A stretch of 64,000 nt of DNA from a virus. Taxonomy: Duplodnaviria > Caudoviricetes. This document shows positions 13,719 to 31,631 of this stretch, in pieces (position 1 is the stretch's first letter; each line of letters begins with the position of its first letter). Location: IMG/VR virus record IMGVR_UViG_2848385391_000003. One strand, given 5' to 3'. The notes under the pieces were generated by a model. The model saw only the letters and a program-made list of their open reading frames with translations. It did no database searches and was not told where the DNA came from. Both the position numbers and the translations under genes were made by a program.

Positions 13719-13721
13719 GCC

Positions 13722-15908: not shown

Positions 15909-15924
15909 ATTTCCCCAAAAAAGG

Positions 15925-15962: not shown

Positions 15963-15996
15963 GTTTCTACCCCTCGCACTTATTTATAGGATATGC

Positions 15997-17301: not shown

Positions 17302-17313
17302 AAATCACACACC

Positions 17314-17967: not shown

Positions 17968-18953
17968 CTCTTTATGCACGTCCTGATGAACACGTCTTTG
18001 CTCAGGGTGCGCGCCCTGGAGAAGTTCAACCCTTTCCCGATCTTTCCAGAGGGTGGGGCGTTGCCTTTGACCAGACTGGCGGCATCCCACCGATGGAATG
18101 GTTTAATTTTATTGGCAAACGCGCTGATGAAGCCATTCGCTATCTGATGCAACGCGGCTTGCCCGAATGGTCTGAGACAGAAGACTATCCTGAAGGCAGT
18201 TATATTCAATATTCTGGTAAAACCTATCGCGCCAAAGTAGCGAATAAGGGTAAAACGCCTTCAACTCATTTAGCCGAATGGGAAGAATGGGGTCTTACGC
18301 GTGAAGCGCTCAATGCGCACTTTCACCCCAAAGATGGGGAGTTGGCTTGGTCCAAAATCACCAAAACGCCAACAACATTAGACGGTTACGGTATTACCAA
18401 TGCCGCTACGGCTCAAGATGTGGAACACCGCTTCTCCGAAATCCATCAGCGCTTTCATCCTAAAAATGGTCCATTGCCTTGGGCAAAAATTTCTGACAAA
18501 CCCACAACGCTCAGCGGATACGGCATTACAGATGCTGCGCCCATTGCGAACCCCGCTTTCTCCGGACAGCCTACCGCACCCACTCCGTCAGCTCAAGACA
18601 GGAGTACCCGTATCGCTACCACCGCTTCCACCTGGGCCACCCTTCTTAGCCTGTTTACTGGACCTGACCGACAATCCTTTCAAGGCAACGGGTTCCAGAA
18701 ACTTCCAGGTGGCCTCATTCTCCAATGGGGTTTCACCTCTACCCACGGCAATGGAATGTCTAATGTGATTTTCCCTGTCAAGTTTTCAACGAAATGTCTG
18801 GCCATTCATGGCACTCATCTCGGCACTGGATGTGCAACCGTCATCGAATATGTCGGGACTCGAACCAATATCGGCGCCACATTGCGCACTCTCGATGAAA
18901 ATGCCATGACCCGCGCAGGATGGGGCCTTCATTGGTTTGCTATTGGACATTAA
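17964..18953 (+). CDS. Tail fibre protein with gp53-like C-terminal domain
   Basis: GW......PPMEWFN anchor, two PTTL.GYGIT repeats, QKLPGGLILQWG...WFAIGH end. Confidence 0.85.
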   Translation: MTLYARPDEHVFAQGARPGEVQPFPDLSRGWGVAFDQTGGIPPMEWFNFIGKRADEAIRYLMQRGLPEWSETEDYPEGSYIQYSGKTYRAKVANKGKTPSTHLAEWEEWGLTREALNAHFHPKDGELAWSKITKTPTTLDGYGITNAATAQDVEHRFSEIHQRFHPKNGPLPWAKISDKPTTLSGYGITDAAPIANPAFSGQPTAPTPSAQDRSTRIATTASTWATLLSLFTGPDRQSFQGNGFQKLPGGLILQWGFTSTHGNGMSNVIFPVKFSTKCLAIHGTHLGTGCATVIEYVGTRTNIGATLRTLDENAMTRAGWGLHWFAIGH

Positions 18954-19005
18954 TTTGCCCTCTCATGTCTATTCTTCTGTTTTCTATTTAAACCCACTTC
19001 ATCGT

Positions 19006-19425
19006 ATGACTTTTTATTATTCAAAATCAGAACCCGGATTTTACTGCGTCGGGATACATGGCGATAACATCCCTAAAGATGCTGTCTCTATTACTCAAGA
19101 AGAGCACACCGCATTGCTCAATGCCCAATCCAAAGGTAAATGGATCCAGTCTAATGAGAACGGCTACCCAGTGGCTGTTGACCCGCCTCCACTTACCCCT
19201 GAGGAGTGGGCCGACATTAATTTACGCTGTCGACAGGCTCGGTTGAGTCAAGCGGCTTTAAAAGTCGCTCCTTTACAAGATGCCGTAGACCTCAACATCG
19301 CCACGGATGACGAAAAACAGCTTCTCAAAGAATGGAAACTTTATCGAGTTGCTCTCAACCGCATTGAGCAGCACTCTAGCCTTTCCGCCGAGATCGAATG
19401 GCCTAAACCGCCTGATGAGAATTGA
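19006..19425 (+). CDS. Tail fibre assembly chaperone (Tfa)
   Basis: PLQDAVDL..AT.EE...L..WKLYRV.LNR...WP.PP. Confidence 0.88.
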   Translation: MTFYYSKSEPGFYCVGIHGDNIPKDAVSITQEEHTALLNAQSKGKWIQSNENGYPVAVDPPPLTPEEWADINLRCRQARLSQAALKVAPLQDAVDLNIATDDEKQLLKEWKLYRVALNRIEQHSSLSAEIEWPKPPDEN

Positions 19426-19443
19426 ACCCATTGATATTGTGTC

Positions 19444-19468
19444 GACCGCCTTAGAGCGGTCTTTTTTT
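19444..19468 (+). terminator. Intrinsic terminator before the lysis cassette
   Basis: GACCGC-CTTAGA-GCGGTC plus T7. Confidence 0.7.
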
Positions 19469-19487
19469 CGTCTACACACCTCTATAT

Positions 19488-19913
19488 ATGACCGACACCT
19501 TTGACAGGGCCACACTCGTTTCAGAGCTTAAACGCGATGAAGGCGAGCGCTTGAAACCCTACTTCGATACCGTCGGCAAAATCACCATCGGCGTCGGGCG
19601 CAATTTGACGGATGGGGGCATCTCTCAAAGCGAATCCGAGATCCTTTTGCATAACGATATTGCACGAACGCTTAGATGGCTGGATCGGAATTTACCCTGG
19701 TGGCGCACGCTAGATACAGTGCGGCAACGTGTGCTCATCCATATGGCCTTTAACCTGGGCGGCAATCTTCTGACCTTTGTTCATACTCTAGATGCCATGC
19801 AACGCAACGACTACGCAGCCGCGGCTAACGGCATGCTCGCATCCAAATGGGCGAATCAGGTCGGCCAACGAGCACGGCGCCTAGCTAATATGATGCGCAC
19901 CGGAAAAATTTAA
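19488..19913 (+). CDS. Endolysin (T4-lysozyme/GH24-like)
   Basis: DEG....Y.DT.G..TIGVG.NL, MAFNLG, SKWA.QV..RA. Confidence 0.9.
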   Translation: MTDTFDRATLVSELKRDEGERLKPYFDTVGKITIGVGRNLTDGGISQSESEILLHNDIARTLRWLDRNLPWWRTLDTVRQRVLIHMAFNLGGNLLTFVHTLDAMQRNDYAAAANGMLASKWANQVGQRARRLANMMRTGKI

Positions 19914-19929
19914 CTCTCAACATCAAAAA

Positions 19930-20220
19930 ATGAATCTTCACGAACATGACCGAATGCTTGCCATATTGGCTGCGATGGGTGCTGTGCTTGGGATTGGTAA
20001 ATTGCTCAATGGCGGCGAGAAAATTACCGCTCGGCTGATTATCGGGCGCATGATTGTGGGTGCGGGCTTAAGCGTCGCCGCCAGCTCCACCCTCATGCTT
20101 CTGCCTGAACTTTCTCCGATCGCTGTCACAGGCCTCGGCGCAGCACTCGGCATTCTCGGCCAGTCCTATTTGGAAATGGCTGTACAACGCTGGTTTGGGA
20201 AACGCTCAAATGCTAACTAA
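19930..20220 (+). CDS. Holin
   Basis: 96 aa, about 3 hydrophobic segments, basic C-terminus, in lysis cassette. Confidence 0.8.
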   Translation: MNLHEHDRMLAILAAMGAVLGIGKLLNGGEKITARLIIGRMIVGAGLSVAASSTLMLLPELSPIAVTGLGAALGILGQSYLEMAVQRWFGKRSNAN

Positions 20221-20734
20221 TTGGCTTGCCGGTCCGTCGCGCCTATTGTGCGTCGCAGCAACCGCTTTCAGTTTTGGCGTAGGGTGCGCGGGTTTTTTGT
20301 ATTACAACCCACGCATTCAGAAAGAACGCTCAGCGCTAGTGCACTATAAAGCTCAACTCACCATGGCCCAAGCTCAATTGATTGAAGCCCAAACCAAAGT
20401 CATCATCCAAACCGAAATTCAATACCGCGACCGCATCAAAATCGTCAAAGAAAAAGGCGACACGATTATTAAGGAAGTGCCCATCTATGTTAATCAAGCT
20501 GATACTGACCATTTCGGCGTTAACGTTGGCTTCGTGCGCCACCACAACGCAGCCTTTGCCAACGAGTCTGCCGGACCTGCCGCCCACTTTGACCGAGAAC
20601 CCGCCGGAATTTCGCTTGCTGAGATTGCCGAAGTCAACGCTTTTAACGCCAACGTCTGCTGGCAATGGCGGGAACAAGCGCTTAGATTAAGAGCATTTTA
20701 CCGGCAGTTACAGCATATACACTCTATGCCATAA
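20210..20734 (+). CDS. Inner-membrane spanin (Rz-like)
   Basis: N-terminal TM, coiled coil, IIKEVP.YV motif; contains an embedded lipoprotein ORF. Confidence 0.75.
   Translation: MLTNWLAGPSRLLCVAATAFSFGVGCAGFLYYNPRIQKERSALVHYKAQLTMAQAQLIEAQTKVIIQTEIQYRDRIKIVKEKGDTIIKEVPIYVNQADTDHFGVNVGFVRHHNAAFANESAGPAAHFDREPAGISLAEIAEVNAFNANVCWQWREQALRLRAFYRQLQHIHSMP
20487..20690 (+). CDS. Embedded outer-membrane spanin lipoprotein (Rz1-like)
   Basis: +1 frame in Rz; MLIKLILTISALTLASC lipobox, Pro-rich mature part; AAGGA upstream. Confidence 0.75.
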   Translation: MLIKLILTISALTLASCATTTQPLPTSLPDLPPTLTENPPEFRLLRLPKSTLLTPTSAGNGGNKRLD

Positions 20735-20930: not shown

Positions 20931-23900
20931 TTACGCTAACACAGCACCTCGCTGCTTTAACAGCTTACCATTCATTTCGCTTAACCCTTCCACTCCTTCT
21001 ATTAACGCTCCTCTCACTGTCAAAAAATTATGACCCGTACTCCACCTGAAATACGCCTTATATTTCCCCTCTTCTTTTCGCAATTCCCATTGCCGAACAG
21101 AGTTATCTAGACTACCTATCCCTAAATAGTGAATACCCGATGCCTCTTTCCAGGCAAGGCTTGCAATCGGTCCACTATCTTCAATCAGTATTTGGCACTC
21201 TCCCGTTTGGGGGTCCCACAGCCGCACCGTAGTGTCAGAACTCCCCGACGCTACCTGATCTCCTCTCGGCGAATACGCTACGCTAAAAACTCTATCTGTA
21301 TGCCCTTCTAACTTCTGCTTCTGCTCTCCGCTTTCTATATCCCACAGCCGCACCGTCTTATCTACACTCCCCGACGCGACCTGATCTCCTCTCGGCGAAT
21401 ACGCTACGCTATAAACTCTATCTGTATGCCCTTCTAACTTCTGCTTCTGCTCTCCGCTTTCTATATCCCACAGCCGTACCGTCTTATCTTCACTCCCCGA
21501 CGCGACCTGATCTCCTCTCGGCGAATACGCTACGCTCAAAACTCTATCTGTATGCCCTTCTAAATTCTGCTTCTGCTCTCCGCTTTCTATATCCCACAGC
21601 CGTACCGTATTGTCTTCACTCCCAGACGCGACCTGATCTCCTCTCGGCGAATACGCTACGCTATAAACTCTATCTGTGTGCCCTTCTAAATTCTGCTTCT
21701 GCTCTCCGCTTTCTATATCCCACAGCCGCACCGTATTGTCCCAACTACCCGACGCTACCTGATCTCCTCTCGGCGAATACGCTACGCTAAAAACTATATC
21801 TGTATGCCCTTCTAACTTCTGCTTCTGCTCTCCGCTTTCTATATCCCACAGCCGTACCGTATTGTCTTCACTCCCAGACGCTACCTGATCTCCTCTCGGC
21901 GAATACACTACGCTCAAAACTCTATCTGTGTGCCCTTCTAAATTCTGCTTCTGCTCTCCGCTTTCTATATCCCACAGCCGCACCGTATTGTCCAAACTCC
22001 CCGACGCTACCTGATCTCCTCTCGGCGAATACACTACGCTCAAAACTATATCTGTATGCCCTTCTAACTTCTGCTTCTGCTCTCCGCTTTCTATATCCCA
22101 CAGCCGCACCGTATTGTCCAAACTCCCCGAAGCGACCTGATCTCCTCTCGGCGAATACGCTACGCTAAAAACTACATCTGTATGCCCTTCTAACTTCTGC
22201 TTCTGCTCTCCGCTTTCTATATCCCACAGCCTTACCGTATTGTCAGAACTCCCCGACGCTACCTGATCTCCTCTCGGCGAATACGCTACGCTCACAACTC
22301 CATTTGTATGCCCTTCTAACTTCTGCTTCTGCTCTCCGCTTTCTATATCCCACAGCCGCACCGTATTATCTTGACTCCCCGACGCTAACTGATCTCCTCT
22401 CGGCGAATACGCTACGCTAAAAACTATATCTGTATGCCCTTCTAATTTCTGCTTCTGCTCTCCGCTTTCTATATCCCACAGCCGCACCGTAGTGTCAGAA
22501 CTCCCAGACGCTACTTGATCTCCTCTCGGCGAATACGCTACGCTCACAACTCCATTTGTATGCCCTTCTAAATTCTGCTTCTGCTCTCCGCTTTCTATAT
22601 CCCACAGCCGCACCGTAGTGTCTAAACTCCCCGACGCTACCTGATCTCCTCTCGGCGAATACGCTACGCTAAAAACTACATTTGTATGCCCTTCTAAAGT
22701 ACGGAGTTTTTCCCAATTCGAGGTCCCGTACACGCTAATCTTACCGTTTTCAAGCCCTATGGCACAGGTTTTCCCATCGGGTGAATACACACAAGAATAT
22801 ACTTTGCTCTCTCCTTGGATATAGGGCCATTCACCAAACTGCGCCCCTTCCATTTTTGCCTCGCTTAAATTCGCCTGGCGTAACCAACTTTTGCGTAAAT
22901 TCACCTTCCTTAAATCTGCCCCTTGCAGTTCAGCAGAATCAAATAACCCATAGCTCAAATCCGCTCCAGGTATCCGGATTCTATTTAAATCCCACCCAGT
23001 AAACGGCACCCCTGCTTTCACCAAGATCGTCATCGCATTCGCCGCACCCCGACTCACAAAATCTGTCTGCGTTGAGCCTTTGAGCCAGACCAGCAGGGGT
23101 TTCACCAGCGCTTTGTTCTGTTGCACACGCTCCACTAAAAACCGCTGAACCCCTGCATCCTCCACCAGATTAAATCGGTTCAATAATCCTTCCGGATTTA
23201 CCTGATCCGAGTCATTCAGCGTTTTCCAGAGCGCCTGGACATTCCTCATTCCGCTCGAGGATTCGCATGCGCCCCCTCCTGCCGCCTCTTCCAGTTCTTG
23301 CCACATCCCACGCGCCACCAGATAATCCTGAATCGATTTATGGATAAACCGATATTGATCTCCTTGGCGAATTAACGGCGCATTAAACCGCAACAGCCGC
23401 GTCTTTTCTTCTGCGTCCCCTAAATACTGCGCTCGCCAACCCCCTTTTTTTCCATCCTTCGCTTCTGAATACGTGACCGACACCAACTGCTCTTCATACA
23501 TCGCTAACGCCAGATTTTGACTATACTCCAAGCCGTGCAGTGTAAATTCATCATCCAGATCCTCAAACGCTTCCTGCTCCTTAGGTTTGAGTGGGATGCG
23601 CGCCAACCTTTCCTGTGATCGGTTGAACCAATTTTCCACGGACCTCTCATATAACCCCATACGCGTCAGCTTCGAGTGCTCTTCCTCCGCTTTTAGGCTC
23701 GGCAACACCTCTAACGTCATTTTCAACATAAACGGCGTGCGCACTAATTCTTTTAACTCTGCGATTTCTTTAAATAACTGTTTGTAATCCTCTGCTTTCC
23801 ACTTCGGTTTCGTATAACTCACATATTGATCAATATAGTGCTCTATCGATGCATCCGAAAACGACGACAACCGATATTCTTCCAATGCGCCAGGTCTGCC

Positions 23901-25994
23901 TATTGGATGAAACTTATTTTGATAATGATCTCCTAAATATTCCGGCCGGCTGCTGATAATCACTTTCGCTTGCCAACGCTCTAGTTTATTATCCGCATAG
24001 AAGGCGCGTGAACGTTGCGCTATTTCGTCATACCCATCCAGAATAAAAATAAACCGACCACCTTTACGTAAATTTTCTATCTCGGGTTTCGATAAACCTT
24101 GTTCTTCCAGATATTGTTCGATCAAATTTCTGCCAGGGTTCTCTAGCGTAGCCAATGATATGAATAACGGGATTGGCCTGTCTTGGGTATTTTCCGCTTG
24201 GATATAGTCTTTCCATAACCGACGTGCCATGTGACGATTAAATGTTGACTTACCGCTCCCCCCTTCACCTAACAGCAATAAGACTTTTTTATCCGAATCC
24301 AAAAACGCATTGACCTTCTCTTCTAAATCAAAATGTTCTGTCGCCTCCGCTGTGAGCTTACCTTGCGGTGCAACATACATCGCCAAACCATCCTGGATTT
24401 CTCCAAGCTCTTCCCAGTCCTTGAAATATTCTGCCTGGATACTTTCACCTAAAATCGCAAGTGGCTCTTTCTTCGATTTCAGTTCTTTTTCTTGCTGATG
24501 CTTCAATTGTTGATGGAGTTGCTGCACGGTAAGGGCAAGCTCGTTGTGTAACGCTTTCCGTATATCATCGAAAATACTGTCTACGAGTTGGGTAAACTCA
24601 AGCCCATCAAACTTTGAATCGGTCTTCAAATGCGAAATACAATCACTGTACCCCTGCCAAAACTTATTCAGAAACGTTTGGGCTTCGTCACTACCCGCTA
24701 ACAGCCGCTCGATCAGCTTAAAGAGCACCCCATGCCGACTTTGATTCGCATACACTTCTCGCCCTGCTTGCACTTGTTCTTCAAAGCGCGGTATGTCTTC
24801 CATCCGAACCGCTGTCGCTGAAACAAAATCTGACAAGCACGCATCGTAGCTATTCAAGGTTAACGCAACCGGAATAATCCCATGCTTATCTTTAAGCTCT
24901 TCTGCTCGGATTTGCAAAAATGCCATTTCTGTCAATACATGATGGAACCCGGCCTTATAGCTTTCCTCTTGCGAGAATTCTCTGACCACCTCACGTATCG
25001 CCATCGCGCTATCTTGCTCACTATCTTTCAGATACGCTTCTCGATCTTTGCGATACGCCTCTCGCAGTTTCTGATAAAAGTGGCCATAATCCGACCACTT
25101 TAGATAACTTCCCAATACCTCAGAACAACACACCGTGACCTTATCGACCGGGGTCACATCGCCTCGCAACCGCCCCGGTAATAGACACAGCTGATTGGTT
25201 AAAATATCTTCTAGCTTGCCGTCCTTTTTCAGATCTCTCGAAACACTTGAATACGGTTGCCCCATCGGCGTTTGATCCGAATACAAAATCACTTGAATTT
25301 GAGAGAGCTTTTCAATTAAATATTTAGAGGTAGAGGCCTCAGCCTTTCCGTGGGCTGGATTGTCATGCGCATATACTAAAAACAGGCTGGGTTTATTCGC
25401 GACCTTTAAGGCTCCCAGCGTCGACAGCGCCTTTTCAAACAGGTAATCCATCTGCTTGCTTTTTTCTTCGATAGACACATCAACCTCTCGTTGCGGAGGC
25501 GTTAGACTCAGTTTTGAAGGCCGCGCATTTGCAACCCACTCTTTTGTTGGATCCAGTTGTTTTCTATTCCCCTCGCTCACACTCTCATTTTTAATTAAAA
25601 ATGAGCTGTACCGTGCGCTTATTTGTTGATGCAACATTCGCGCGCCAGTTTGCTTCATATCCATATAAGGCGCGTACTCTAACGCCTTTTTATAATTCTC
25701 CTCAGCGCCGAATTTATCGTCTTTGCGTAGAAAAGTGCCATAGTAAAAATGGCTTGCGGCAAGTTGCTCTCTTATTTTTCTTAAGTCAGACTCATTTTGA
25801 GTGCTTTGCAGCACGTCTTCTGCTTTGCGAATGCCTCCTTCAAAGCAGTCCTTTGCTTTCTCTAGATCTCCTTGCTTCTCATAGCGCGTTGCTTCCTCTC
25901 GAAGCTTATTAGCTGCTGACAAGCCAGAAACTGAAATGGGTGTCGTATTAACCTCTCTACTCCCAATCCCCCTCAATGCATTCAAATTAAACAT
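20931..25994 (-). CDS. NLR-like STAND protein: TPR-like N-terminus, possible TIR/SEFIR-like domain, NACHT, pentapeptide repeats, ~14 WD40 repeats
   Basis: Walker A GEGGSGKS, Walker B FIFILDGYDE, RFIHKSIQDY, GADLS/GADLR/QANLS pentapeptides, GH...WD repeats. Confidence 0.9.
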   Translation of the reverse strand: MFNLNALRGIGSREVNTTPISVSGLSAANKLREEATRYEKQGDLEKAKDCFEGGIRKAEDVLQSTQNESDLRKIREQLAASHFYYGTFLRKDDKFGAEENYKKALEYAPYMDMKQTGARMLHQQISARYSSFLIKNESVSEGNRKQLDPTKEWVANARPSKLSLTPPQREVDVSIEEKSKQMDYLFEKALSTLGALKVANKPSLFLVYAHDNPAHGKAEASTSKYLIEKLSQIQVILYSDQTPMGQPYSSVSRDLKKDGKLEDILTNQLCLLPGRLRGDVTPVDKVTVCCSEVLGSYLKWSDYGHFYQKLREAYRKDREAYLKDSEQDSAMAIREVVREFSQEESYKAGFHHVLTEMAFLQIRAEELKDKHGIIPVALTLNSYDACLSDFVSATAVRMEDIPRFEEQVQAGREVYANQSRHGVLFKLIERLLAGSDEAQTFLNKFWQGYSDCISHLKTDSKFDGLEFTQLVDSIFDDIRKALHNELALTVQQLHQQLKHQQEKELKSKKEPLAILGESIQAEYFKDWEELGEIQDGLAMYVAPQGKLTAEATEHFDLEEKVNAFLDSDKKVLLLLGEGGSGKSTFNRHMARRLWKDYIQAENTQDRPIPLFISLATLENPGRNLIEQYLEEQGLSKPEIENLRKGGRFIFILDGYDEIAQRSRAFYADNKLERWQAKVIISSRPEYLGDHYQNKFHPIGRPGALEEYRLSSFSDASIEHYIDQYVSYTKPKWKAEDYKQLFKEIAELKELVRTPFMLKMTLEVLPSLKAEEEHSKLTRMGLYERSVENWFNRSQERLARIPLKPKEQEAFEDLDDEFTLHGLEYSQNLALAMYEEQLVSVTYSEAKDGKKGGWRAQYLGDAEEKTRLLRFNAPLIRQGDQYRFIHKSIQDYLVARGMWQELEEAAGGGACESSSGMRNVQALWKTLNDSDQVNPEGLLNRFNLVEDAGVQRFLVERVQQNKALVKPLLVWLKGSTQTDFVSRGAANAMTILVKAGVPFTGWDLNRIRIPGADLSYGLFDSAELQGADLRKVNLRKSWLRQANLSEAKMEGAQFGEWPYIQGESKVYSCVYSPDGKTCAIGLENGKISVYGTSNWEKLRTLEGHTNVVFSVAYSPRGDQVASGSLDTTVRLWDIESGEQKQNLEGHTNGVVSVAYSPRGDQVASGSSDTTVRLWDIESGEQKQKLEGHTDIVFSVAYSPRGDQLASGSQDNTVRLWDIESGEQKQKLEGHTNGVVSVAYSPRGDQVASGSSDNTVRLWDIESGEQKQKLEGHTDVVFSVAYSPRGDQVASGSLDNTVRLWDIESGEQKQKLEGHTDIVLSVVYSPRGDQVASGSLDNTVRLWDIESGEQKQNLEGHTDRVLSVVYSPRGDQVASGSEDNTVRLWDIESGEQKQKLEGHTDIVFSVAYSPRGDQVASGSWDNTVRLWDIESGEQKQNLEGHTDRVYSVAYSPRGDQVASGSEDNTVRLWDIESGEQKQNLEGHTDRVLSVAYSPRGDQVASGSEDKTVRLWDIESGEQKQKLEGHTDRVYSVAYSPRGDQVASGSVDKTVRLWDIESGEQKQKLEGHTDRVFSVAYSPRGDQVASGSSDTTVRLWDPQTGECQILIEDSGPIASLAWKEASGIHYLGIGSLDNSVRQWELRKEEGKYKAYFRWSTGHNFLTVRGALIEGVEGLSEMNGKLLKQRGAVLA
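21186..22697 (-). repeat. 12 near-identical 126-bp tandem WD40-coding repeats
   Basis: Unit LEGHTxxVxSVAYSPRGDQVASGSxDxTVRLWDIESGEQKQ(K/N) counted 12 times. Confidence 0.95.
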
Positions 25995-26160
25995 CTTCTT
26001 CCCCTCTTATAACTTATTTAGAACTGCGTGGATAAAAAACGCTGCTTACCAGAATAAAAGCAGCGTCTTGTCTTCTCTCCCCCTTATAGGGAATCAGGAT
26101 CATTCATTTAACGCCACCCAAGCGAGCTCCACTTCACCAGGAAACCACCTGAATTCACTA

Positions 26161-26211
26161 AAATTTCGCTGACATCGACGCTATTCCAGCGAAATTTAAC
26201 CAGCGAAATTT
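26161..26211. repeat. Three copies of CAGCGAAATTT (one inverted, two direct)
   Basis: AAATTTCGCTG 26161-26171; CCAGCGAAATTT 26186-26197 and 26200-26211. Confidence 0.7.
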
Positions 26212-26346
26212 TACGTCAAATTTGCTTCGGAAAACTTATACCTAATTCGCCCTAATAAGGCCTAAAAAGCCCTAATTGGGCTATTGCTCCGAAGCAAAAA
26301 AACCGCTATCCTGTTGTTTATATTAACTTTTGTTGATTTACCTCCA

Positions 26347-26408
26347 GGACTCGAAATCCGGTATACTGGTCCCCAGTATCGAGGGTTCAAATCCCTCCCT
26401 TTCCGCCA
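26347..26408 (+). other. att core: duplicated 3' part of tRNA-Ser(CGA), not a complete tRNA
   Basis: GGA-CTCGAAA-TCCGG anticodon arm, long variable arm ATACTGG/CCAGTAT, T arm GAGGG-TTCAAAT-CCCTC, ends GCCA; no 5' acceptor strand (GGAAAGG) or D arm upstream. Confidence 0.88.
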
Positions 26409-26432
26409 AAAGCCTGTGTTTATAAGGCTTTT
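26408..26432 (+). terminator. Phage-supplied terminator-like hairpin after the tRNA 3' end
   Basis: AAAAGCCT-GTGTTTATA-AGGCTTTT. Confidence 0.55.
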
Positions 26433-26947
26433 CAGTTTTAACTCCGCACTTCTGCGCCGGTTTTTGCTTCGCACTCCCTCTTCTGATTCCTTGTTTGGCC
26501 CCATCGCTTAAAGCCCTGCGCCGGTTTTTTGCTTCGGAATGGGTTATTTCGTCCGTTGCGTGGGCGGGCTGATCGCAACGATCAAGACTCAGAAAAACGG
26601 TTGAGTGGGGTCGGAGCTTGGAATAATTTTTTATCGTCTTGCGCCGTGCTGTGAAGAACAGTAGAACAAACCCACGTCAGGAGAATTTCTAGATGTTTTA
26701 GAGGGAGAATAACTGTCAAGCCTGCTGGCTTCTTGTGATACTACAATATTGCTTTTTCCGGTGGGTCTGAACGAAAACCCACCGAAATTTCAATTGCTGA
26801 GATAACCAAAGTCAACTCTGACTTCAACGCTAGCGTCTGCTAGCAGTAATGCGAACAAACGCCAGCGCTTAAAATTTTATCGGCGCTTACAGCAAACGCA
26901 GCGGGATTCTCTACCAACTCAAAGACTCCCGCCTTCCGCCAATAGGC

Positions 26948-29602
26948 CTATATTGCGCCTCGTTGTCTTAACAAAGCAGCATTTTGAGAGCTGAGATTAA
27001 GGGCATTTTGGATGAGGGCACCTGATGCAGTAAGCCCGTCTTGTCGTGAAGTCCAATCTAACAAAATTGGACCTATTTCACCTGAGCGATAAGGGACTTG
27101 CCAAAGACGAATAGTTTTGTCCTCTCCTGCCGTAGCCAATAGGGCCACTTCATCCTGTGTGGGTTTCCACACAATAGTACTAATACCACCCACACAGCCT
27201 TTGAGTACCGCTTGACAATCGCCTGTTAAAACAGACCATAACCTGATTGTTTGATCCCTACTTCCAGACGCGAGCCAATGACCATCTTTTGAGAACGCGA
27301 CACAATTCACACTATCCGTATGCCCAGTATAGGTGTGAGCCAGAGCGCGCTCCCCCCTCATGTGCCACAGCTTCACCGTACCATCATCACAAATAGACGC
27401 GAGCCAATGACCATCGTTTGAGAATGCGACACGATACACACCATCGTCATGCCCGACGTAGGAGTAAGCCATAGCTTGTTCACCAACCACGTGCCACAGC
27501 TTCACTGTATTATCCCCACTTCCAGATGCAAGCCACTGTCCATCGTTTGAGAATGCGACACTGCTGACAATATCGGTATGCCCGATATAAGAGTGAGCCA
27601 AGGTACGCTCGCCCCCTGCGCACCACAGCTTTACCGAATTATCTGAACTTCCAGATGCAAGCCACTGCCCATCTTTTGAGAACGCGACACAATTCACACT
27701 ATCCGTATGCCCAGTATAGGTGTGAGCCAGAGTGCGCTCCCCGTCCATGCGCCATAACTTCACCGTCTTATCCCTGCCTCCAGACGCGAGCCACTGACCA
27801 TCGCTTGAGAACACAGCACTAATCACCATATCCGTATGTCCGGTATAGGTGTGAGCCAGAGTGCGCTCTCGGTCCACGCACCATAACTTTACCGTCTTAT
27901 CCCAACCCACAGACGCGAGCCACTGACCATCGCTTGAGAACGCAGCACTATTCACCATATCATCATGCTCAACATAGGAGAAGGGCATAACCTGTTCACC
28001 GGTCACGCGCCACAGCTTCACCGAATTATCTAAACTTCCAGATGCAAGCCACTGACCATCGCTTGAGAACGTGACACTATTCACCCTATCCGTATGCCCA
28101 GTATAGGTGTGAGCCAGAGTGCGCTCACCTTCCACGTGCCACAACTTTACCGTAGTCCTACCTCCAGATGCCAACCATTGCCCATCGTTTGAGAATGCGA
28201 CACTATTCACTCCATGTGGATGCCCAATATAAGTGTGAGCCAGAGTGCGCTCACCCTCCACGTGCCATAAATTCACTGTATGACCATTTCCATGTGGAGG
28301 CCATTGCCAATCGTTTGTTCCAGATGCGAGCCATTGCCCATCTTTTGAGAATGCAACACTGTATACCTTGTTCTTATGTTCGGTATAGGAGTGGGCCAAG
28401 GCACGTTCGCCTGCTACGTGCCACAGCTTCACCGTCTTATCATCGCTACCAGATGCGAGCCAATGGCTATCATTTGAGAATGCGACACTTGTCACCATAC
28501 TCATATGCCCGGTATAGGTGTGAGCCAGAGTGCGGTCGCCCTCTACACACCACAGCTTCACTGTACAATCCCCACCTCCTCCAGATACTAGCCACTGACC
28601 ATCGTTTGAGAATGCTACACTTGTCACCACACCCGTATGCGTATAGGAGTGGGCTAGCGCGCGTTCGCCCTCCACGCACCACATCTTTACCGTCTTATCC
28701 CCACTTCCAGACGCGAGCCGCTGTCCATCACTTGAGAATGCGACACTATACACATAGCTCGTATGCCCTTCATAAGTATGAATTTTTTGGAAATTCTTTG
28801 TTTCATAAAGATGGATAGCATTGCCTTCTGTCACAGCCAGCCAGCGCCCAACTGGCGAATAACAACACGCATAAACAGCGCTTTCCATTTCTAAAGAGGG
28901 CTTTTCACCAAAATCTACTCCTGCTAAATCAGCACCATCTAAATTAACACCATTCAGCCAAGTATCGGTCCAATTTACGCCTGTTAAATCGGCTCCTTGA
29001 AATTGCGTAGAATCAAACACTCCATAACTTAAATCTGCCCCAGGCACACGTATCCCTTGGAGATCCTTATTATTGAATTGCGCCCCTGCCTTCACTAATA
29101 GCGTCAGCGCGTTAGCTGCTGTAGCCTGCACCTCTTCTGTTTTGGACCGTTCCACCCAGTTCAATAATTTCTCTTTTAGCGAAATGTCTTGCTGGACTTT
29201 TTCTTGCAAAAATTTAAGTATTTCTGGATCATTAACAAGACATATCAGCCCAAAAAGTGCAGATTTCTCAACGACCTGATCGAGTCGCCCTGAGTCAGAT
29301 AACTTTTGCAATTGACTCAATGTGAATTTCTTTAACTCTACATCCGAACTTATTAGAGCTCCTTGATATTGCGCCTGAATCCTTTCTTTGATCAGATGTA
29401 GCTTCAGAGCAGGTGAATCCATGGGTTCACCATTATGAGTCGGTGTTGTCAGTGCTTTAAGCAAAGCCTGACGGCTCGAAAAATCGAGCAGCTTTTCTAT
29501 TTCTTGCCGAATTTCTGCGGGAAGCGAGAGAAAACCGGATTCTGTGGATTTTTGTGTTACTGGATAGTGCAGATTGACAGAGCTTGAAATAGGGTTCAGC
29601 AT
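26948..29602 (-). CDS. F-box-like / pentapeptide / ~14 WD40 repeat protein (putative host-directed effector)
   Basis: FLSLPAEIRQEIEKLL F-box-like motif, GADLS/GADLT/GADLA repeats, 43-aa WD40 units; ATG 29602 (MLNPISSS) preferred to TTG 29620. Confidence 0.82.
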   Translation of the reverse strand: MLNPISSSVNLHYPVTQKSTESGFLSLPAEIRQEIEKLLDFSSRQALLKALTTPTHNGEPMDSPALKLHLIKERIQAQYQGALISSDVELKKFTLSQLQKLSDSGRLDQVVEKSALFGLICLVNDPEILKFLQEKVQQDISLKEKLLNWVERSKTEEVQATAANALTLLVKAGAQFNNKDLQGIRVPGADLSYGVFDSTQFQGADLTGVNWTDTWLNGVNLDGADLAGVDFGEKPSLEMESAVYACCYSPVGRWLAVTEGNAIHLYETKNFQKIHTYEGHTSYVYSVAFSSDGQRLASGSGDKTVKMWCVEGERALAHSYTHTGVVTSVAFSNDGQWLVSGGGGDCTVKLWCVEGDRTLAHTYTGHMSMVTSVAFSNDSHWLASGSDDKTVKLWHVAGERALAHSYTEHKNKVYSVAFSKDGQWLASGTNDWQWPPHGNGHTVNLWHVEGERTLAHTYIGHPHGVNSVAFSNDGQWLASGGRTTVKLWHVEGERTLAHTYTGHTDRVNSVTFSSDGQWLASGSLDNSVKLWRVTGEQVMPFSYVEHDDMVNSAAFSSDGQWLASVGWDKTVKLWCVDRERTLAHTYTGHTDMVISAVFSSDGQWLASGGRDKTVKLWRMDGERTLAHTYTGHTDSVNCVAFSKDGQWLASGSSDNSVKLWCAGGERTLAHSYIGHTDIVSSVAFSNDGQWLASGSGDNTVKLWHVVGEQAMAYSYVGHDDGVYRVAFSNDGHWLASICDDGTVKLWHMRGERALAHTYTGHTDSVNCVAFSKDGHWLASGSRDQTIRLWSVLTGDCQAVLKGCVGGISTIVWKPTQDEVALLATAGEDKTIRLWQVPYRSGEIGPILLDWTSRQDGLTASGALIQNALNLSSQNAALLRQRGAI
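27236..28780 (-). repeat. 12 diverged ~129-bp WD40-coding repeats
   Basis: For example GAGCCAGAGTGCGCTC at 27724 and 27853 (129-bp period). Confidence 0.88.
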
Positions 29603-29742: not shown

Positions 29743-30813
29743 TCATTTCGTCGGCTCTACTTTCTCGCCTCGACGATTGCGCACATAGTGTTCCGTCATC
29801 TTGATGCTTGTATGCCCCAACTGCTTTTGCGCTCGACGAATATCCCCCGATAACTCCGCCTTGTCTGTTCCCGCTTTCGCTCGTAAGTCTCGAAATTGAT
29901 ATTCCGCTGCGCATAAGCCTGCCGCTGTGCGCGCTTGCGCAAACATCGCTTGCAGCGTCTTTAACGCAACGCACTCTCCTAACTCATTCACCACCAAATC
30001 AACATGCCCTGTGTTGTACTTGGCTTTTCTCTTTAATATGCGCTCTAACGTCTTCTCCAGATGACCGGTGATCGCTATCCTCAGTTTCGTCTTCGTCTTG
30101 TTTTGCTGCACCAGCAGACACCCTTCTTTGATATCCTGCTCTGTCATCTTTAAAATATCCGATGGGCGCTGACCCGTCAGATACGCTAAATCCATCGCAT
30201 CCCGCAACGGTTGCCGTGCTTTCGCATAAATCGCGCTATATTCACTGTCTTCGATATAGACTTTACGCCCGTCTTCTCGATAGCCCTTGATCCCCAAACA
30301 CGGATTCGGCTGATCCGTATACCCCCATTCTCTTGCCTTATTCCAGATGTGCGAGAATAACGACTTCTCTCGATTCGCTCTGACCTGCCCTTCGCTCCCA
30401 TTGACGGCCTGACCTGCCTCTTTCAGTTTTCTGACAGTCTCTTTCACGCGCCAATCTAAAAACTGACGGATATGGATCGGCTTGATCTCGTCCATTAATG
30501 CCGGCGGATTATCAAAGAATTCCAGCAATTTAACCAGCTCCGCCAAATTGTCTTTCTGCGTGCGAGGCGCTTTTGTTGGGATCACGTCTTGTCTATATCT
30601 TTGTGCTGCATGACGAAACGTTACCCTGACTCGATCCTCCAATTGGTTTTGACTATCCAGCTCTGTCCACTTTTGCAGCGCTTCTAGATAATCTGGCCCC
30701 AGCGCGATCTCCTGTCTCGAGGAATGGCCCGTGTCGTAGTAATAATAGGTTTGCCCGCTACGCTGTACCCTCGCTCGCATCCGAGGCGGTAAATTAAACG
30801 CGGTTTGGCTCAT
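29743..30813 (-). CDS. int: Tyrosine integrase
   Basis: LTGQRPSD, FRDLRAK, LGH...MTEHY catalytic motifs; points toward att. Confidence 0.95.
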   Translation of the reverse strand: MSQTAFNLPPRMRARVQRSGQTYYYYDTGHSSRQEIALGPDYLEALQKWTELDSQNQLEDRVRVTFRHAAQRYRQDVIPTKAPRTQKDNLAELVKLLEFFDNPPALMDEIKPIHIRQFLDWRVKETVRKLKEAGQAVNGSEGQVRANREKSLFSHIWNKAREWGYTDQPNPCLGIKGYREDGRKVYIEDSEYSAIYAKARQPLRDAMDLAYLTGQRPSDILKMTEQDIKEGCLLVQQNKTKTKLRIAITGHLEKTLERILKRKAKYNTGHVDLVVNELGECVALKTLQAMFAQARTAAGLCAAEYQFRDLRAKAGTDKAELSGDIRRAQKQLGHTSIKMTEHYVRNRRGEKVEPTK

Positions 30814-31078
30814 CTTTTACCTGGATCGCTAACTTCGGTTGCCAACTTTTCGCTTTCACTTCTTCTGACCGACCCTCTACCGCGGCACGCGTCACAATCG
30901 GCCGACCTCGCTGGTTCATAAAAAATACGATCTCCTGCTCTTTTAAATAGGCTTCCTGCCTTTCGTATTTACTCGCCTTGCGGGCATATGCGGTTCCCGC
31001 TTCCAGCGTCTTGCCCCGCCTGATCCCTGTCAGCTCATCCACTTGCGCTTCGGTCAAAAAAACTTCACTCATTTCCAC
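30794..31078 (-). CDS. Putative excisionase (DUF4224)
   Basis: FLT..QV.ELTG...GRPIV motif directly upstream of int. Confidence 0.75.
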   Translation of the reverse strand: MEMSEVFLTEAQVDELTGIRRGKTLEAGTAYARKASKYERQEAYLKEQEIVFFMNQRGRPIVTRAAVEGRSEEVKAKSWQPKLAIQVKDEPNRV

Positions 31079-31081
31079 TCC

Positions 31082-31384
31082 TCAGCATAGGCTGGAGCGT
31101 TGAGCGGACTCTTCTTCAGAAACCCAAAATTGAGGTTCCAAATCGTATCCCACCTCAAATACTCCGAGGCTTGTCCCATCCTCTTTGAAGATTTGAATTG
31201 AAATAGATTCATTCCATTCCCAAGTTCCCTCACTTTCTGAGTAATAATTTCCTGCCACCTCTCTGGCTACATACTCGGCATCCTCTTCACCCCAACTTGA
31301 CTCTAAACAATCCGCATCTTCAAATCCCCAACGTTTATCCACAATATATTTATACGTCGTCATCTCTTTTCTCCATTCATTCAT
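31082..31384 (-). CDS. Acidic phage hypothetical protein, paralogue of 31624-31950
   Basis: Shares IFKEDG.SLGVF.V. Confidence 0.65.
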   Translation of the reverse strand: MNEWRKEMTTYKYIVDKRWGFEDADCLESSWGEEDAEYVAREVAGNYYSESEGTWEWNESISIQIFKEDGTSLGVFEVGYDLEPQFWVSEEESAQRSSLC

Positions 31385-31427
31385 GGGGTTTTACTGCTTA
31401 CCGTTGGCATTTGCATGAAGCCAGGTT

Positions 31428-31631
31428 TCATACGTCATTCCATTGTTCGTCCGTCAGCTCGGAGCGTGGATCAACATAGCCGTCCACACGGCAGCGCTGT
31501 TGGGGCAGCAAAATCGATGCGGGGGCGCGGGGCCGCACCTCCGCGCAGCGCGGACAATCAACCCCGTACTTCGCACGCCGCGCATTCCTGTCATCCCTCA
31601 TCGCTCTGAAATCTTCACCCATATCACCCAT
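31428..31631 (-). CDS. Small phage protein with CxxC
   Basis: CPRC...C; GGAGAGG RBS; overlaps upstream gene. Confidence 0.6.
   Translation of the reverse strand: MGDMGEDFRAMRDDRNARRAKYGVDCPRCAEVRPRAPASILLPQQRCRVDGYVDPRSELTDEQWNDV

What the first reader, a model, noticed from the sequence alone, without database searches (positions are those of the whole stretch)
20931..29602. Prophage-borne modular pentapeptide-WD14 chassis with swappable eukaryote-like heads, one copy on each side of the att site
Seen: both cargo proteins share the same C-terminal chassis: AANA(M/L)T(I/L)LVKAG..F...DL..IR.PGADLSYG.FDS...QGADL pentapeptide block, 12 regular plus 2 degenerate WD40 units (two 7-blade propellers), and a terminal LT..GALI.....LS..N..LL.QRGA cap. 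Their heads differ completely: TPR-like/TIR-like/NACHT in one, F-box in the other. Both start with an unstructured Ser/Asn-rich N-terminus. One is the last gene of prophage A; the other lies between att and int of prophage B. Inference: this phage family uses att-adjacent slots to shuttle a combinatorial repertoire of host-directed (probably fungal-directed) effectors, analogous to the eukaryotic association module of Wolbachia phage WO.
Basis: partly seen in the sequence, partly recalled or inferred. Interest (0 to 1): 0.82.

Follow-up and report, generated by a model that had tools for sequence, protein, structure and literature searches.

The report
Prophage-carried NLR-like WD40 gene cassettes
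Two very large genes on either side of a phage attachment site belong to a huge, reshuffling family of immune-receptor-like proteins that a temperate phage of a fungus-dwelling bacterium carries at its ends, although what these proteins act on is still unknown.

Summary
Window 20931-25994(-) and 26948-29602(-) share a roughly 770-aa chassis at 42% identity: helical linker, pentapeptide repeats, 14 WD40 units and a cap. They flank a 62-nt tRNA-Ser(CGA) att core between two tandem myovirus prophages. NACHT is confirmed in the first gene. The F-box in the second found no support in six tests. "TIR-like" remains only a lead.

The family has 89 members, 13.4% of this 2.8-Mb genome. It occurs in 5/5 same-genus (Mycoavidus-like) genomes, and fungal-host NLRs share the chassis, as already published.

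What I did not find in print:
- All 5 complete prophages, at three different tRNA sites, carry 1-2 family genes between their last backbone gene and att.
- Sibling prophages and relatives carry different members in these slots.
- Heads and chassis recombine: one mosaic gene runs from 99% identity in the head to 47% in the cap.
- WD40 differences concentrate on five surface positions.

About half the family is not phage-adjacent.

Function is unresolved. I favour export to the fungal host (about 0.4) over anti-phage sensing (about 0.3). My grounds are a family-wide N-terminal leader, a conserved T3SS, the family's scale and the host homologues. This is a new variant of known kinds.

The parts
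197..20734 (+). Late (structural) module of prophage A: large terminase 654-2231, portal 2377-3774, major head 6207-7175, tail sheath 8802-10325, tape measure 11317-12981, baseplate 16156-17301, tail fibre 17964-18953
   Evidence: PHROG hits E 1e-39 to 1e-127. There are five near-identical full copies in the genome.
20195..20734 (+). Last backbone gene of the phage (179 aa, phrog_4952). Conserved phage DNA ends about 20 nt before its stop, so it marks the left edge of the right-hand cargo slot.
   Evidence: Homology with sibling prophages runs over nt 1-~520 of this gene and then stops.
20931..25994 (-). P0001, 1687 aa: head 1-190 (weak TPR), 'mid' domain 191-520 (SEFIR/TIR lead only), NACHT NTPase (Pfam 571-726), helical linker plus pentapeptide 931-1060, 14 WD40 units 1058-1650, cap 1651-1687. 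Right-hand cargo of prophage A.
   Evidence: A 95-100% identical orthologue sits in the same slot of prophage C.
21186..22697 (-). Array of 12 x 126-nt WD40 units of P0001. Mean pairwise DNA identity is 90.5%. Variation concentrates on unit positions 6, 7, 9, 25 and 27.
   Evidence: TRF: period 126, 11.8 copies, 92% matches.
26347..26408 (+). att core: a 62-nt copy of the 3' part of tRNA-Ser(CGA), from the anticodon stem to CCA. It is the junction of prophage A and prophage B.
   Evidence: The whole tRNA lies at genome 1739458-1739548. There are further copies at genome 1830941, 1877226, 1893946, 1903552, 1911474 and 1527516.
26409..26767 (+). Conserved phage arm next to att. It is found after the other att copies at 73-83% identity.
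   Evidence: query att_to_P2stop.
26768..26894 (+). Remnant of the 3' end (nt ~396-521) of the phage's last backbone gene, lying convergent just downstream of P0002.
   Evidence: The same kind of remnant, or the whole gene, lies downstream of 26 of 89 family genes.
26948..29602 (-). P0002, 884 aa from the ATG (a TTG lies at 29620): lineage-specific head of about 110 aa (ML.PIS...LSLP.EI.EEIE..LD), helical linker plus pentapeptide, 14 WD40 units, cap. It has no NACHT. Left-hand cargo of prophage B, 122 nt downstream of int and co-oriented with it.
29743..30813 (-). Tyrosine integrase of prophage B.
   Evidence: phrog_1 E 1.8e-43. Copies 93-96% identical occur in units A, C and D.
30794..64000 (.). 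Remainder of prophage B: early genes on the minus strand, then the late module on the plus strand from about 43343. The window ends inside B's copy of the last backbone gene (63440-64000). B's right-hand cargo (two family genes) lies just beyond the window.

Best explanation
What it is (shown). The two genes are accessory cassettes of a ~45-kb temperate myovirus. Three complete tandem copies of this phage, plus decayed units, sit at tRNA-Ser(CGA) in a Mycoavidus-like endofungal bacterium.

In the circular phage the order would be: tail fibre, last backbone gene ->, <- right cargo (1-2 genes), attP, <- left cargo, <- integrase.

The cargo belongs to a lineage-specific NLR-like family. Its architecture is variable head, usually a NACHT NTPase, a helical linker, a pentapeptide beta-helix, 14 WD40 units and a short cap. 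The family has 89 members here.

How it diversifies (shown):
- Cassettes move between sibling phages and chromosomal sites.
- Heads and chassis recombine.
- The near-identical 126-nt WD40 units vary almost only at five positions per unit. From general knowledge of WD40 folds these positions line the top face of the propeller.

How it works (inferred):
- The NACHT forms act as STAND switches. A ligand bound by the WD40/pentapeptide sensor releases NTP-dependent oligomerisation and the action of the head.
- The NACHT-less form (P0002 type) is a sensor-only adaptor or decoy.

Where it acts (inferred, my odds about 0.4). Most likely on the fungal host, after export. The phage serves as the vehicle that spreads and reshuffles the repertoire. 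This parallels the eukaryotic association module of phage WO.
For: Prophage and att:
-.

Cargo inside att-bounded units:
- In 5 of 5 complete prophages, 1-2 family genes lie between the last backbone gene and att. This holds at tRNA-Ser, tRNA-Asn and tRNA-Gly sites, whose integrases are 43-52% identical to the tRNA-Ser-type integrase.
- The left slot is filled in 4 of 4 units that have the tRNA-Ser-type integrase.

Different cargo on the same backbone:
- Phage proteins are mostly 90-100% identical (fibre 67-93%, last backbone gene 77-82%). Cargo NACHT is about 50% identical.

Relatives:
- 9 of 15 loci holding the last backbone gene in four other genomes have a family gene convergent just downstream.
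- G002 and G004 have a P0002-type gene directly after tRNA-Ser or att.
- Two IMG/VR proviral loci have the same layout.

Footprints of spread:
- A remnant of the last backbone gene lies downstream of 26 of 89 family genes.
- 32 of 89 lie within 1 kb of phage-backbone DNA. Random placement gave a mean of 13.3 and a maximum of 22 in 200 trials.
- In the NACHT tree the phage-linked rows are fully interspersed: 19 changes for 23 rows, shuffled mean 20.

Module swapping:
- The 'mid' head is 62-74% identical across genes whose NACHT is only 37-40% identical.
- P0001's nearest NACHT relatives (69-72%) include a gene with an ARM_5 head; only that one of the two was scanned.
- The mosaic gene in L062 is 90/99/79/69/47% identical from head to cap.

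Diversifying sensor surface:
- 42 of 64 WD40 amino-acid differences between the A and C orthologues fall on 60 of 504 sites. The first 400 residues are identical.
- 71 of 89 genes have period-126 arrays.

Host arena:
- The family was found only in the genus (5/5 genomes), one sister genus (37 matches) and one other genome. It was not found in 23 other relatives.
- Fungal Mortierellaceae and Glomus proteins share NACHT, linker and cap. The four sampled nest inside a bacterial clade. This agrees with Ciach et al. (passages).
- An N-terminal motif M[LSF]x(1,2)[IV][NSTCG] occurs in 58 of 89 family genes across head classes, against 33 of 955 other long ORFs.
- SctV plus a needle-like gene is present in 5 of 5 genomes searched. 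T3SS has been reported for the genus (passages).
- 13.4% of a reduced genome is given to this family.
- There are no PADLOC NACHT or Avs hits.
Against: - No expression, secretion or packaging data exist. No RNA run was listed.
- No eukaryote-specific domain was verified. The F-box is unsupported.
- Proteins of 870-2800 aa with 14-blade propellers would be unusual type III substrates.
- The N-terminal motif is partly explained by common descent. The upstream non-coding DNA is also conserved within subgroups.
- The export-signal rule I applied is recalled, not taken from any call.
- NACHT with WD40 and a variable head is the canonical layout of bacterial anti-phage STANDs, and prophage-encoded STANDs are established defences (passages).
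- 42 of 89 members lie more than 10 kb from phage DNA.
- The family persists in G001, where no terminase was found. The phage is therefore not its only home.
- In G005 the tRNA-Ser site carries a different phage-like region with no family gene within 18 kb.
- Only four fungal sequences were in the tree, and its root is unknown.
Confidence: 0.45

Rival explanations
1. The cassettes are prophage-encoded NLR-like immune sensors that act inside the bacterium. The WD40/pentapeptide sensor binds a protein of an incoming phage or other mobile element. The NACHT then oligomerises and the head triggers abortive infection. The phage carries varied sets as superinfection-exclusion cargo in a hotspot beside att.
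For: - The tripartite head-NACHT-repeat layout has intact Walker motifs.
- The genes sit in accessory slots at prophage ends and differ between sibling prophages.
- The sensor surface is hypervariable.
- STANDs with WD40 sensors and prophage-encoded STANDs are described as defences (passages; Kibby et al. seen only as a search listing).
- The genome is phage-rich: five full copies plus remnants.
- There is a SEFIR/TIR lead for one head.
Against: - 89 paralogues take 13.4% of a reduced endosymbiont genome. From my own knowledge, that is far beyond known bacterial defence repertoires.
- PADLOC matched only the WD40 part, to a HEAT-ARM model. It matched no NACHT or Avs model.
- The heads recognised are TPR and ARM_5 solenoids, not known immune effectors.
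- 15 of 89 members lack NACHT by BLAST.
- The family is retained in a genome where no terminase was found.
- The family-wide N-terminal leader has no obvious role in a cytosolic sensor.
Confidence: 0.3
2. The family is a self-propagating, largely neutral expansion. Cassettes multiply through tandem prophage integration, internal deletions and unequal recombination among repeats. They have little current function for either bacterium or phage.
For: - The att-bounded units D, E and F (16.7, 9.6 and 7.9 kb) show that phage bodies are deleted while the cargo stays.
- A few junction classes of the backbone-gene remnant have been copied many times.
- There are near-identical pairs at distant sites, for example the genes at 1907144 and 2225783.
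Against: - The family genes are long open frames of 870-2800 aa, apart from three short ORFs of 364, 736 and 744 aa.
- Relatives also show open frames without internal stops in every listed match.
- The Walker motifs are conserved.
- Amino-acid change is focused on five repeat positions rather than spread evenly.
- The head motif is conserved across 11 paralogues.
Confidence: 0.12
3. The genes are ordinary chromosomal family members. They only appear phage-borne because phages integrated among them or because the region was duplicated. They are not packaged.
For: - The family is genome-wide and half of it is not phage-adjacent.
- In a tandem array the junction cargo-att-cargo cannot be told apart from an attP junction.
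- Excision and packaging were not observed.
Against: - The same slot is filled in 5 of 5 full prophages at three unrelated tRNA sites with different integrases.
- The layout recurs in other species and in IMG/VR proviral calls.
- Cargo lies strictly between att cores.
Confidence: 0.06

Closest known systems
NACHT-pentapeptide-WD40 'NOD-like receptors' of Mycoavidus and Mortierellomycota (Ciach et al., bioRxiv 10.1101/2021.12.02.471044; passages read)
   Same: Same protein architecture and same organisms. The bacterial and fungal proteins share the chassis at about 35-50% identity. The fungal sequences nest within the bacterial ones in my small tree.
   Different: In the passages I read, that work treats the genes as a case of horizontal transfer and does not mention prophages or att sites.
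Eukaryotic association module (EAM) of Wolbachia phage WO (Bordenstein & Bordenstein 2016, PMC5062602; passages read)
   Same: It is a block of large, repeat-rich accessory genes next to attP and the recombinase, in a temperate phage of an obligate intracellular symbiont. It includes a NACHT gene with homologues in the eukaryotic host.
   Different: - Packaging of the EAM was shown by particle sequencing there; it was not tested here.
- EAM domains are almost confined to the prophage. This family is genome-wide.
- Here a single family with one chassis fills the slots.
- The closest relatives of each gene here are bacterial paralogues, not host genes.
Prophage- and satellite-borne anti-phage STAND NTPases (Avs, bNACHT; Nature 2026 PMC13581612 passages; Kibby et al. 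search listing only)
   Same: Head-NTPase-repeat sensor layout, carriage on prophages, and WD40 sensors in some clades.
   Different: There was no match to PADLOC NACHT or Avs models. The copy number is two orders higher than usual. The heads are not known immune effectors. Some members lack the NTPase.
Fungal NLRs with highly internally conserved WD40 repeats (HET-E/HET-D type; PMC12222747 seen as search listing and abstract start only; the rest recalled)
   Same: NACHT plus near-identical 42-aa WD40 units whose few variable positions carry the differences between alleles. Repeat number varies.
   Different: Those are eukaryotic allorecognition and immune genes. These are bacterial, phage-linked, and have a pentapeptide domain and a C-terminal cap.
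Burkholderia phage BgManors32 and relatives (closest deposited phage backbone)
   Same: The large terminase is 71-72% identical over 95% of its length.
   Different: None of the 50,697 deposited phage records matched the NACHT-linker part of P0001. Four Ralstonia phages matched only the pentapeptide stretch, at 10-11% coverage.

Membership tests
STAND / NLR-like NACHT NTPases | NACHT NTPase domain with Walker A and B | tested here: met
   P0001: Pfam NACHT E 1.2e-10, 42 bits against a cut-off of 26.7; GEGGSGKST and FILDGYDE are. P0002 has no NACHT, so this feature is met for P0001 only.
STAND / NLR-like NACHT NTPases | C-terminal repeat sensor domain | tested here: met
   12-13 Pfam WD40 stretches and 14 units by motif count, plus pentapeptide repeats.
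STAND / NLR-like NACHT NTPases | N-terminal effector or signalling domain | tested here: inconclusive
   - Weak TPR.
- SEFIR/TIR lead at 0.81 only.
- Pfam 0 of 11.
- Poor AF2 model.
STAND / NLR-like NACHT NTPases | Ligand-triggered NTP-dependent oligomerisation | not testable with these tools
   This needs biochemistry or cryo-EM.
F-box / FBXW substrate receptors | F-box motif (three-helix Skp1-binding domain) ahead of the WD40 propeller | tested here: inconclusive
   - Pfam gave no F-box at E<=1, and 0 of 11 paralogous heads hit at E<=10.
- Foldseek-PDB, VIA-wide and Atlas list none, but residues 24-60 were barely tested by the fold searches.
- A head profile against 1.84 billion proteins reached 33 representatives; 32 carry the match at or near their N-terminus, one is a 2035-aa protein with nine internal partial matches, and the hits were not scanned for families.
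F-box / FBXW substrate receptors | Binding to Skp1 | not testable with these tools
   No fungal Skp1 could be supplied to the complex predictor.
TIR / SEFIR domains | Flavodoxin-like TIR fold with a conserved catalytic or signalling surface | tested here: inconclusive
   - Atlas feature hits 0.78-0.81 to SEFIR/TIR clusters, a lead only.
- Pfam 0 of 11.
- PDB profile search gave none.
- AF2 pLDDT 57.
- Wojciechowski et al. report a TIR/HET-related domain joined to NACHT-WD40 in this genus (passage).
Pentapeptide repeat proteins | Tandem A(D/N)LXX repeats forming a right-handed quadrilateral beta-helix | tested here: met
   - Pfam PF00805 in 11 of 11 heads.
- PDB profile E 1e-21.
- VIA Z 8-9 to pentapeptide structures.
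Phage WO-type eukaryotic association module | Accessory block inside the phage genome next to attP and the recombinase | tested here: met
   The cargo lies between att cores, on both sides of the core and beside int. Packaging itself was not tested.
Phage WO-type eukaryotic association module | Domains closer to host eukaryote genes than to bacterial genes, and almost confined to the prophage | tested here: not met
   The closest relatives are bacterial paralogues. Fungal homologues are 33-49% identical. 42 of 89 members lie more than 10 kb from phage DNA.
Known anti-phage STAND systems (Avs, bNACHT as modelled in PADLOC) | Match to a curated defence-system model | tested here: not met
   PADLOC returned only PDLC02919 (HEAT-ARM_XIII), over the WD40 part, for both proteins.
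Known anti-phage STAND systems (Avs, bNACHT as modelled in PADLOC) | Protection against phage on expression | not testable with these tools
   This is a bench assay.
Type III secreted effectors | A type III secretion system in the same genome | tested here: met
   There are three FHIPEP genes and a needle gene over the cut-off in G000. SctV plus a needle-like gene within 3-13 kb occurs in 5 of 5 genomes.
Type III secreted effectors | N-terminal export signal and demonstrated translocation | tested here: inconclusive
   The shared N-terminal motif occurs in 58 of 89 family genes against 33 of 955 other ORFs. The recalled Hrp-type rules are met by 40 of 89 against 88 of 955. Translocation is not testable here.

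The most novel reading that the evidence does not exclude
A temperate phage family of endofungal bacteria is the vehicle and diversification engine of an NLR-like repertoire. The repertoire is exported into the fungal cytoplasm through a shared N-terminal leader. The same phage-borne cassettes were the source of the NACHT-pentapeptide-WD40 receptors now found in Mortierellomycota. This would be phage-mediated transfer of immune-receptor-type genes between kingdoms.
Probability: 0.15. Interest if true: 0.9.

Novelty: new variant of a known kind. Interest (0 to 1): 0.62.

Why it matters
Three literatures have so far run separately, and this finding ties them together:
- prophage richness in Mycoavidus;
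- the NACHT-pentapeptide-WD40 genes shared between these bacteria and their fungal hosts;
- accessory modules at phage ends (WO's EAM and prophage defence hotspots).

If the cargo is packaged, this is a second, independent case of a symbiont phage carrying host-related NLR-type genes next to attP. It comes with an unusually clear record of cassette exchange, domain swapping and surface hypervariation.

It also makes two open questions testable in a symbiont for which cultivable strains are reported (recalled, not checked in any call):
- what the 11-88 paralogues per genome do (host manipulation or immunity);
- how NLR-type genes cross between bacteria and fungi.

Tried and rejected
- **F-box in P0002.** Tested by Pfam on the single protein, Pfam on 11 paralogous heads at E<=10, an AF2 model (pLDDT 75) searched with Foldseek-PDB and VIA-wide, Atlas features and structure, and a head profile against 1.84 billion proteins. 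None pointed to an F-box. The short motif region (residues 24-60) was poorly covered by the fold searches.
- **TIR in P0001.** Pfam 0 of 11. The PDB profile search gave one chance-level hit. The AF2 model (pLDDT 57) was too poor to search, so no fold search was run on it.
- **PADLOC.** No NACHT or Avs model matched.
- **Promoter and terminator scan of 20600-30900.** 11 and 5 sites, not above the shuffles (13.2 and 7.6).
- **Expression.** No RNA holder was listed for window 22800-29700. Read laying was therefore not used, because contigs cannot show expression or excision.
- **Circular-form junction.** I considered looking for it and dropped the idea. In a tandem array it is indistinguishable from the A/B junction.
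- **Complex prediction** was not used, because no Skp1 could be supplied.
- **Supplementary files** of Sharmin et al. 2018 (prophage gene tables and Fig. S1) were not seen. They may list these genes inside PHASTER regions.
- **Searches for prior description.**
  - 'Mycoavidus'+'WD40': 5 papers.
  - 'Mycoavidus'+'prophage': 8 papers.
  - 'Mycoavidus'+'NACHT': 8 papers.
  - 'Mycoavidus'+'phage'+'NLR': 0 papers.
  - I read passages in only four of these papers; none of those passages links the family to prophage ends.
  - Sharmin et al. has 0 occurrences of WD40, repeat or pentapeptide.
Full report
**1. The observation**

The window holds two long minus-strand ORFs:
- P0001: window 20931-25994, 1687 aa.
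- P0002: window 26948-29620, 890 aa from a TTG. The ATG at 29602 is the start shared with its paralogues.

BLASTP aligns P0001 932-1685 with P0002 117-890 at 42% identity (329/785, E 2e-157). The aligned part has four pieces:
- A helical linker ending in AANA(M/L)T(I/L)LVKAG.
- Pentapeptide repeats: Pfam 39.6 bits against a cut-off of 20.2; PDB profile hits E 1e-21.
- 14 WD40 units, 12 regular and 2 degenerate.
- A conserved cap.

P0001 also has a NACHT domain above Pfam's cut-off, with intact Walker motifs.

- TPR is one sub-threshold repeat.
- 'TIR-like' rests on an Atlas lead of 0.81 and on a published remark about this genus (passage). Pfam gave 0 of 11 paralogues and the AF2 model was unusable (pLDDT 57).
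- The F-box found no support in any test. Pfam gave nothing for the protein and 0 of 11 paralogous heads. A pLDDT-75 model was searched with Foldseek and VIA-align, and the Atlas was queried. A head profile against 1.84 billion proteins reached 33 representatives. In 32 the match is at or near the N-terminus. One, P0107 (2035 aa), shows nine internal partial matches. I did not scan these hits for families.
- Because the motif is short, I call the F-box unsupported rather than excluded.

**2. Setting: tandem prophages**

PHROG matches identify integrase, large terminase, portal, major head, tail sheath, tape measure, baseplate and tail fibre.

ARAGORN finds no tRNA in the window. However, window 26347-26408 is an exact copy of the last 62 nt of the tRNA-Ser(CGA) gene at genome 1739458-1739548. 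Further copies of this core and its adjoining arm lie at genome 1830941, 1877226, 1893946, 1903552 and 1911474, and one at 1527516.

These cores bound the following units:

| Unit | Size | Content |
|---|---|---|
| A | 44.7 kb | complete prophage |
| B | 46.7 kb | complete prophage |
| C | 46.2 kb | complete prophage |
| D | 16.7 kb | family genes plus an integrase |
| E | 9.6 kb | one family gene; the remaining ~5 kb was not examined |
| F | 7.9 kb | family genes only |

. Integrase, terminase and portal fragments and eight more family genes continue to about 1.96 Mb.

Two more complete copies of the phage sit elsewhere, and each has its own att repeat:
- One at tRNA-Asn; its integrase is 52% identical to the tRNA-Ser-type integrase.
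- One at tRNA-Gly/Arg; its integrase is 43% identical.

**3. The cargo is part of the integrated element**

All 5 of 5 complete prophages have one or two family genes between the last backbone gene (window 20195-20734) and att. All 4 of 4 units with the tRNA-Ser-type integrase have one family gene between att and int.

Backbone proteins of the sibling phages are mostly 90-100% identical, except the fibre (67-93%) and the last backbone gene (77-82%). The cargo differs much more:
- A and C carry the same right-hand gene, 95-100% identical.
- B carries two other family members whose NACHT is about 50% identical to P0001's.
- The left slots hold a NACHT type in A, P0002 in B, another NACHT type in C, and a P0002 type in D.
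- Backbone homology stops about 20 nt before the stop codon of the last backbone gene.

**4. Relatives**

The linker-pentapeptide query found the family in 8 of 31 genomes, counting this one:
- 5 of 5 other genomes of the genus: 11, 19, 29, 43 and 73 matches.
- One sister genus: 37 matches.
- One further genome: 1 match.
- Not found in the other 23.

Named database hits place the genus as Mycoavidus. A 'Glomeribacter' MAG is the other bacterial holder.

The terminase was found in 4 of the 5 same-genus genomes: two near-full matches that contain stop codons, and two fragments. It was not found in G001.

I fetched 15 loci around copies of the last backbone gene in G001-G005:
- 9 have a family gene convergent just downstream.
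- The 6 without are the most divergent copies (57-70% identity). Two of these lie within 1.6 kb of a contig end.

What follows tRNA-Ser(CGA) in the relatives:
- G002: P0002-type, P0002-type, integrase fragment, baseplate, fibre, last backbone gene, NACHT cargo, att, P0002-type, integrase fragments, att, another family gene.
- G004: P0002-type, integrase remnant, P0002-type.
- G005: a different phage-like region with no family gene within 18 kb.
- G001: the att pattern was not found at up to 3 mismatches.

Two IMG/VR proviral contigs show baseplate, fibre, last backbone gene, then family genes, then att.

The first, cargo at the same position in prophage-free strains, could not be tested, since no relative showed an empty site. 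Excision was not tested either.

**5. The family is not prophage-specific**

The genome has 89 ORFs with the NACHT and/or the linker-pentapeptide segment. They total 374,655 nt, or 13.4% of the genome. Of these, 74 have NACHT by BLAST.

A whole or truncated copy of the phage's last backbone gene lies convergent within 900 bp downstream of 26 of 89. Many remnants share a breakpoint near nt 394, and they fall into a few junction classes that were then copied.

Distance to phage-backbone-derived DNA:
- 32 of 89 lie within 1 kb. Random placement gave a mean of 13.3 and a maximum of 22 in 200 trials.
- 42 of 89 lie more than 10 kb away.

In a FastTree of the NACHT-linker region (72 bacterial rows plus 4 fungal rows), the 23 phage-linked rows are interspersed with the 49 others. 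The tree needs 19 changes, against a shuffled mean of 20. Near-identical pairs link an array unit to a distant site. The phage is therefore a major vehicle for the family but not its only home.

**6. Modularity and diversification**

Head classes seen:
- A short head of about 90 aa with no Pfam match.
- TPR.
- TPR plus ARM_5 (PF23948, E down to 1e-116).
- TPR-like plus the 'mid' domain (the P0001 type, 11 genes).
- The NACHT-less P0002 head (11-12 genes).

Evidence that heads and chassis are reassorted:
- The 'mid' head is 62-74% identical across genes whose NACHT is only 37-40% identical to P0001's.
- P0001's NACHT is 69-72% identical to two genes; the one scanned has an ARM_5 head.
- A gene on IMG/VR locus L062 is 90% identical to P0001 in the head, 99% in the mid domain, 79% in NACHT, 69% in the linker and 47% in the cap.

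Evidence for a diversifying WD40 surface:
- The 12 regular WD40 units of P0001 are 126 nt each and 90.5% identical in DNA on average.
- The orthologues in prophages A and C are identical over the first 400 residues.
- Of their 64 WD40 amino-acid differences, 42 fall on unit positions 6, 7, 9, 25 and 27. That is 60 of 504 sites.
- TRF finds period-126 arrays in 71 of 89 family genes, 21 of them at 85% matches or more.

From recalled knowledge of WD40 structure and of fungal HET-E-type NLRs, these positions face the ligand-binding top of the propeller.

**7. What it does**

The NACHT forms have the layout of STAND/NLR switches. The arena in which they act is open.

Points for action inside the bacterium against phages:
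- The architecture.
- The prophage-end location.
- The hypervariable surface.
- The literature on prophage-borne STANDs (passages).

Points for action on the fungal host:
- The family is restricted to endofungal lineages and their host fungi (Ciach et al., passages).
- Its scale in a reduced genome.
- Its retention in G001, where no terminase was found.
- Heads that are solenoids rather than known immune effectors.
- No PADLOC NACHT or Avs match.
- A conserved type III system: SctV plus a needle-like gene in 5 of 5 genomes, and published reports for the genus.
- An N-terminal motif M[LSF]x(1,2)[IV][NSTCG], followed by a Ser/Pro/Asn/Gln-rich stretch. It occurs in 58 of 89 family genes across head classes, against 33 of 955 other ORFs of 300 aa or more.

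Two cautions apply to that motif. Within subgroups the upstream non-coding DNA is conserved too, so part of the signal is common descent. The export-signal rules I compared it with are recalled, not taken from a call.

My odds are:

| Reading | Odds |
|---|---|
| Host-directed | 0.4 |
| Anti-phage or anti-element sensing | 0.3 |
| Largely neutral expansion | 0.12 |
| Merely adjacent to the phage | 0.06 |
| Something else | the remainder |

**8. Novelty**

Already published:
- The NACHT-pentapeptide-WD40 genes of Mycoavidus and their fungal homologues.
- A TIR/HET-like head in this genus.
- The prophage load of the genus. That paper (Sharmin et al.) has no occurrence of WD40, repeat or pentapeptide in its main text; its supplements were not seen.

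Not found in the searches:
- That these genes fill the att-flanking slots of the phages.
- That they are exchanged as cassettes.
- That heads and chassis recombine.
- That variation is focused on five repeat positions.
- That a NACHT-less subfamily typically sits between att and int.

No deposited phage record carries the NACHT-linker module; 4 of 50,697 records matched the pentapeptide part only.

I rate this a new variant of known kinds, of good but not exceptional interest until packaging and function are tested.

Noticed in passing
genome G000:C1 1739458-~1960000 (window = 1757883-1821882): The tRNA-Ser(CGA) locus carries three complete prophages, then att-bounded units of 16.7, 9.6 and 7.9 kb that hold family genes (one also an integrase). 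After that come integrase, terminase and portal fragments and eight more family genes. In all this is roughly 220 kb of phage-derived array.
   Followed up: partly
window 26768-26894 and 25 other places in G000: A piece of about 130 nt from the 3' end of the phage's last backbone gene lies just downstream of many family genes. Many copies share a breakpoint near nt 394 of that gene, and they fall into a few junction classes that have been copied. Whether the piece has a role (terminator, recombination anchor) is unknown.
   Followed up: partly
first ~20 codons of family genes genome-wide, e.g. window 29602 downward and 25994 downward: An N-terminal motif M[LSF]x(1,2)[IV][NSTCG], followed by a Ser/Pro/Asn/Gln-rich stretch, occurs in 58 of 89 family genes of different head classes, against 33 of 955 other long ORFs.
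   Followed up: partly
L062:1392-6596 (IMG/VR proviral contig): A mosaic relative of P0001: head 90%, mid 99%, NACHT 79%, linker 69% and cap 47% identical. This points to a recent recombination that put the same head on another chassis.
   Followed up: yes
G000:C1:1052882-1061362: A 2826-aa family member with two 'mid'-type segments and a long stretch between its NACHT and its linker. It looks like a fusion of two family genes.
   Followed up: no
G000:C1:1324198-1330176: A family member whose WD40 array has 18.8 copies of the 126-nt unit instead of about 12. Repeat number therefore varies within the family.
   Followed up: no
G000:C1:680261-695179, 231937-236970, 899021-900979: There are three FHIPEP (SctV/FlhA-type) genes. 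One has a type III needle gene over Pfam's cut-off 13 kb away, and one has a sub-threshold needle-like gene 3 kb away.
   Followed up: partly
G000:C1:1523067-1530164: Another fragmentary prophage: an exact copy of the 459-aa early protein of prophage B, a second partial copy, fibre and integrase fragments, and an att copy at 1527516.
   Followed up: no
window 38001-40000: G+C drops to 0.43 in the early region of prophage B, against about 0.50 around it.
   Followed up: no
proteins P0053, P0054, P0056, P0057 (fungal): Fungal NLR-like proteins share not only NACHT and linker but also the C-terminal cap with P0001 (30-37.5% identity). They form one group nested in a bacterial clade of this genome's family. 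Only four sequences were sampled, and the tree is unrooted.
   Followed up: partly
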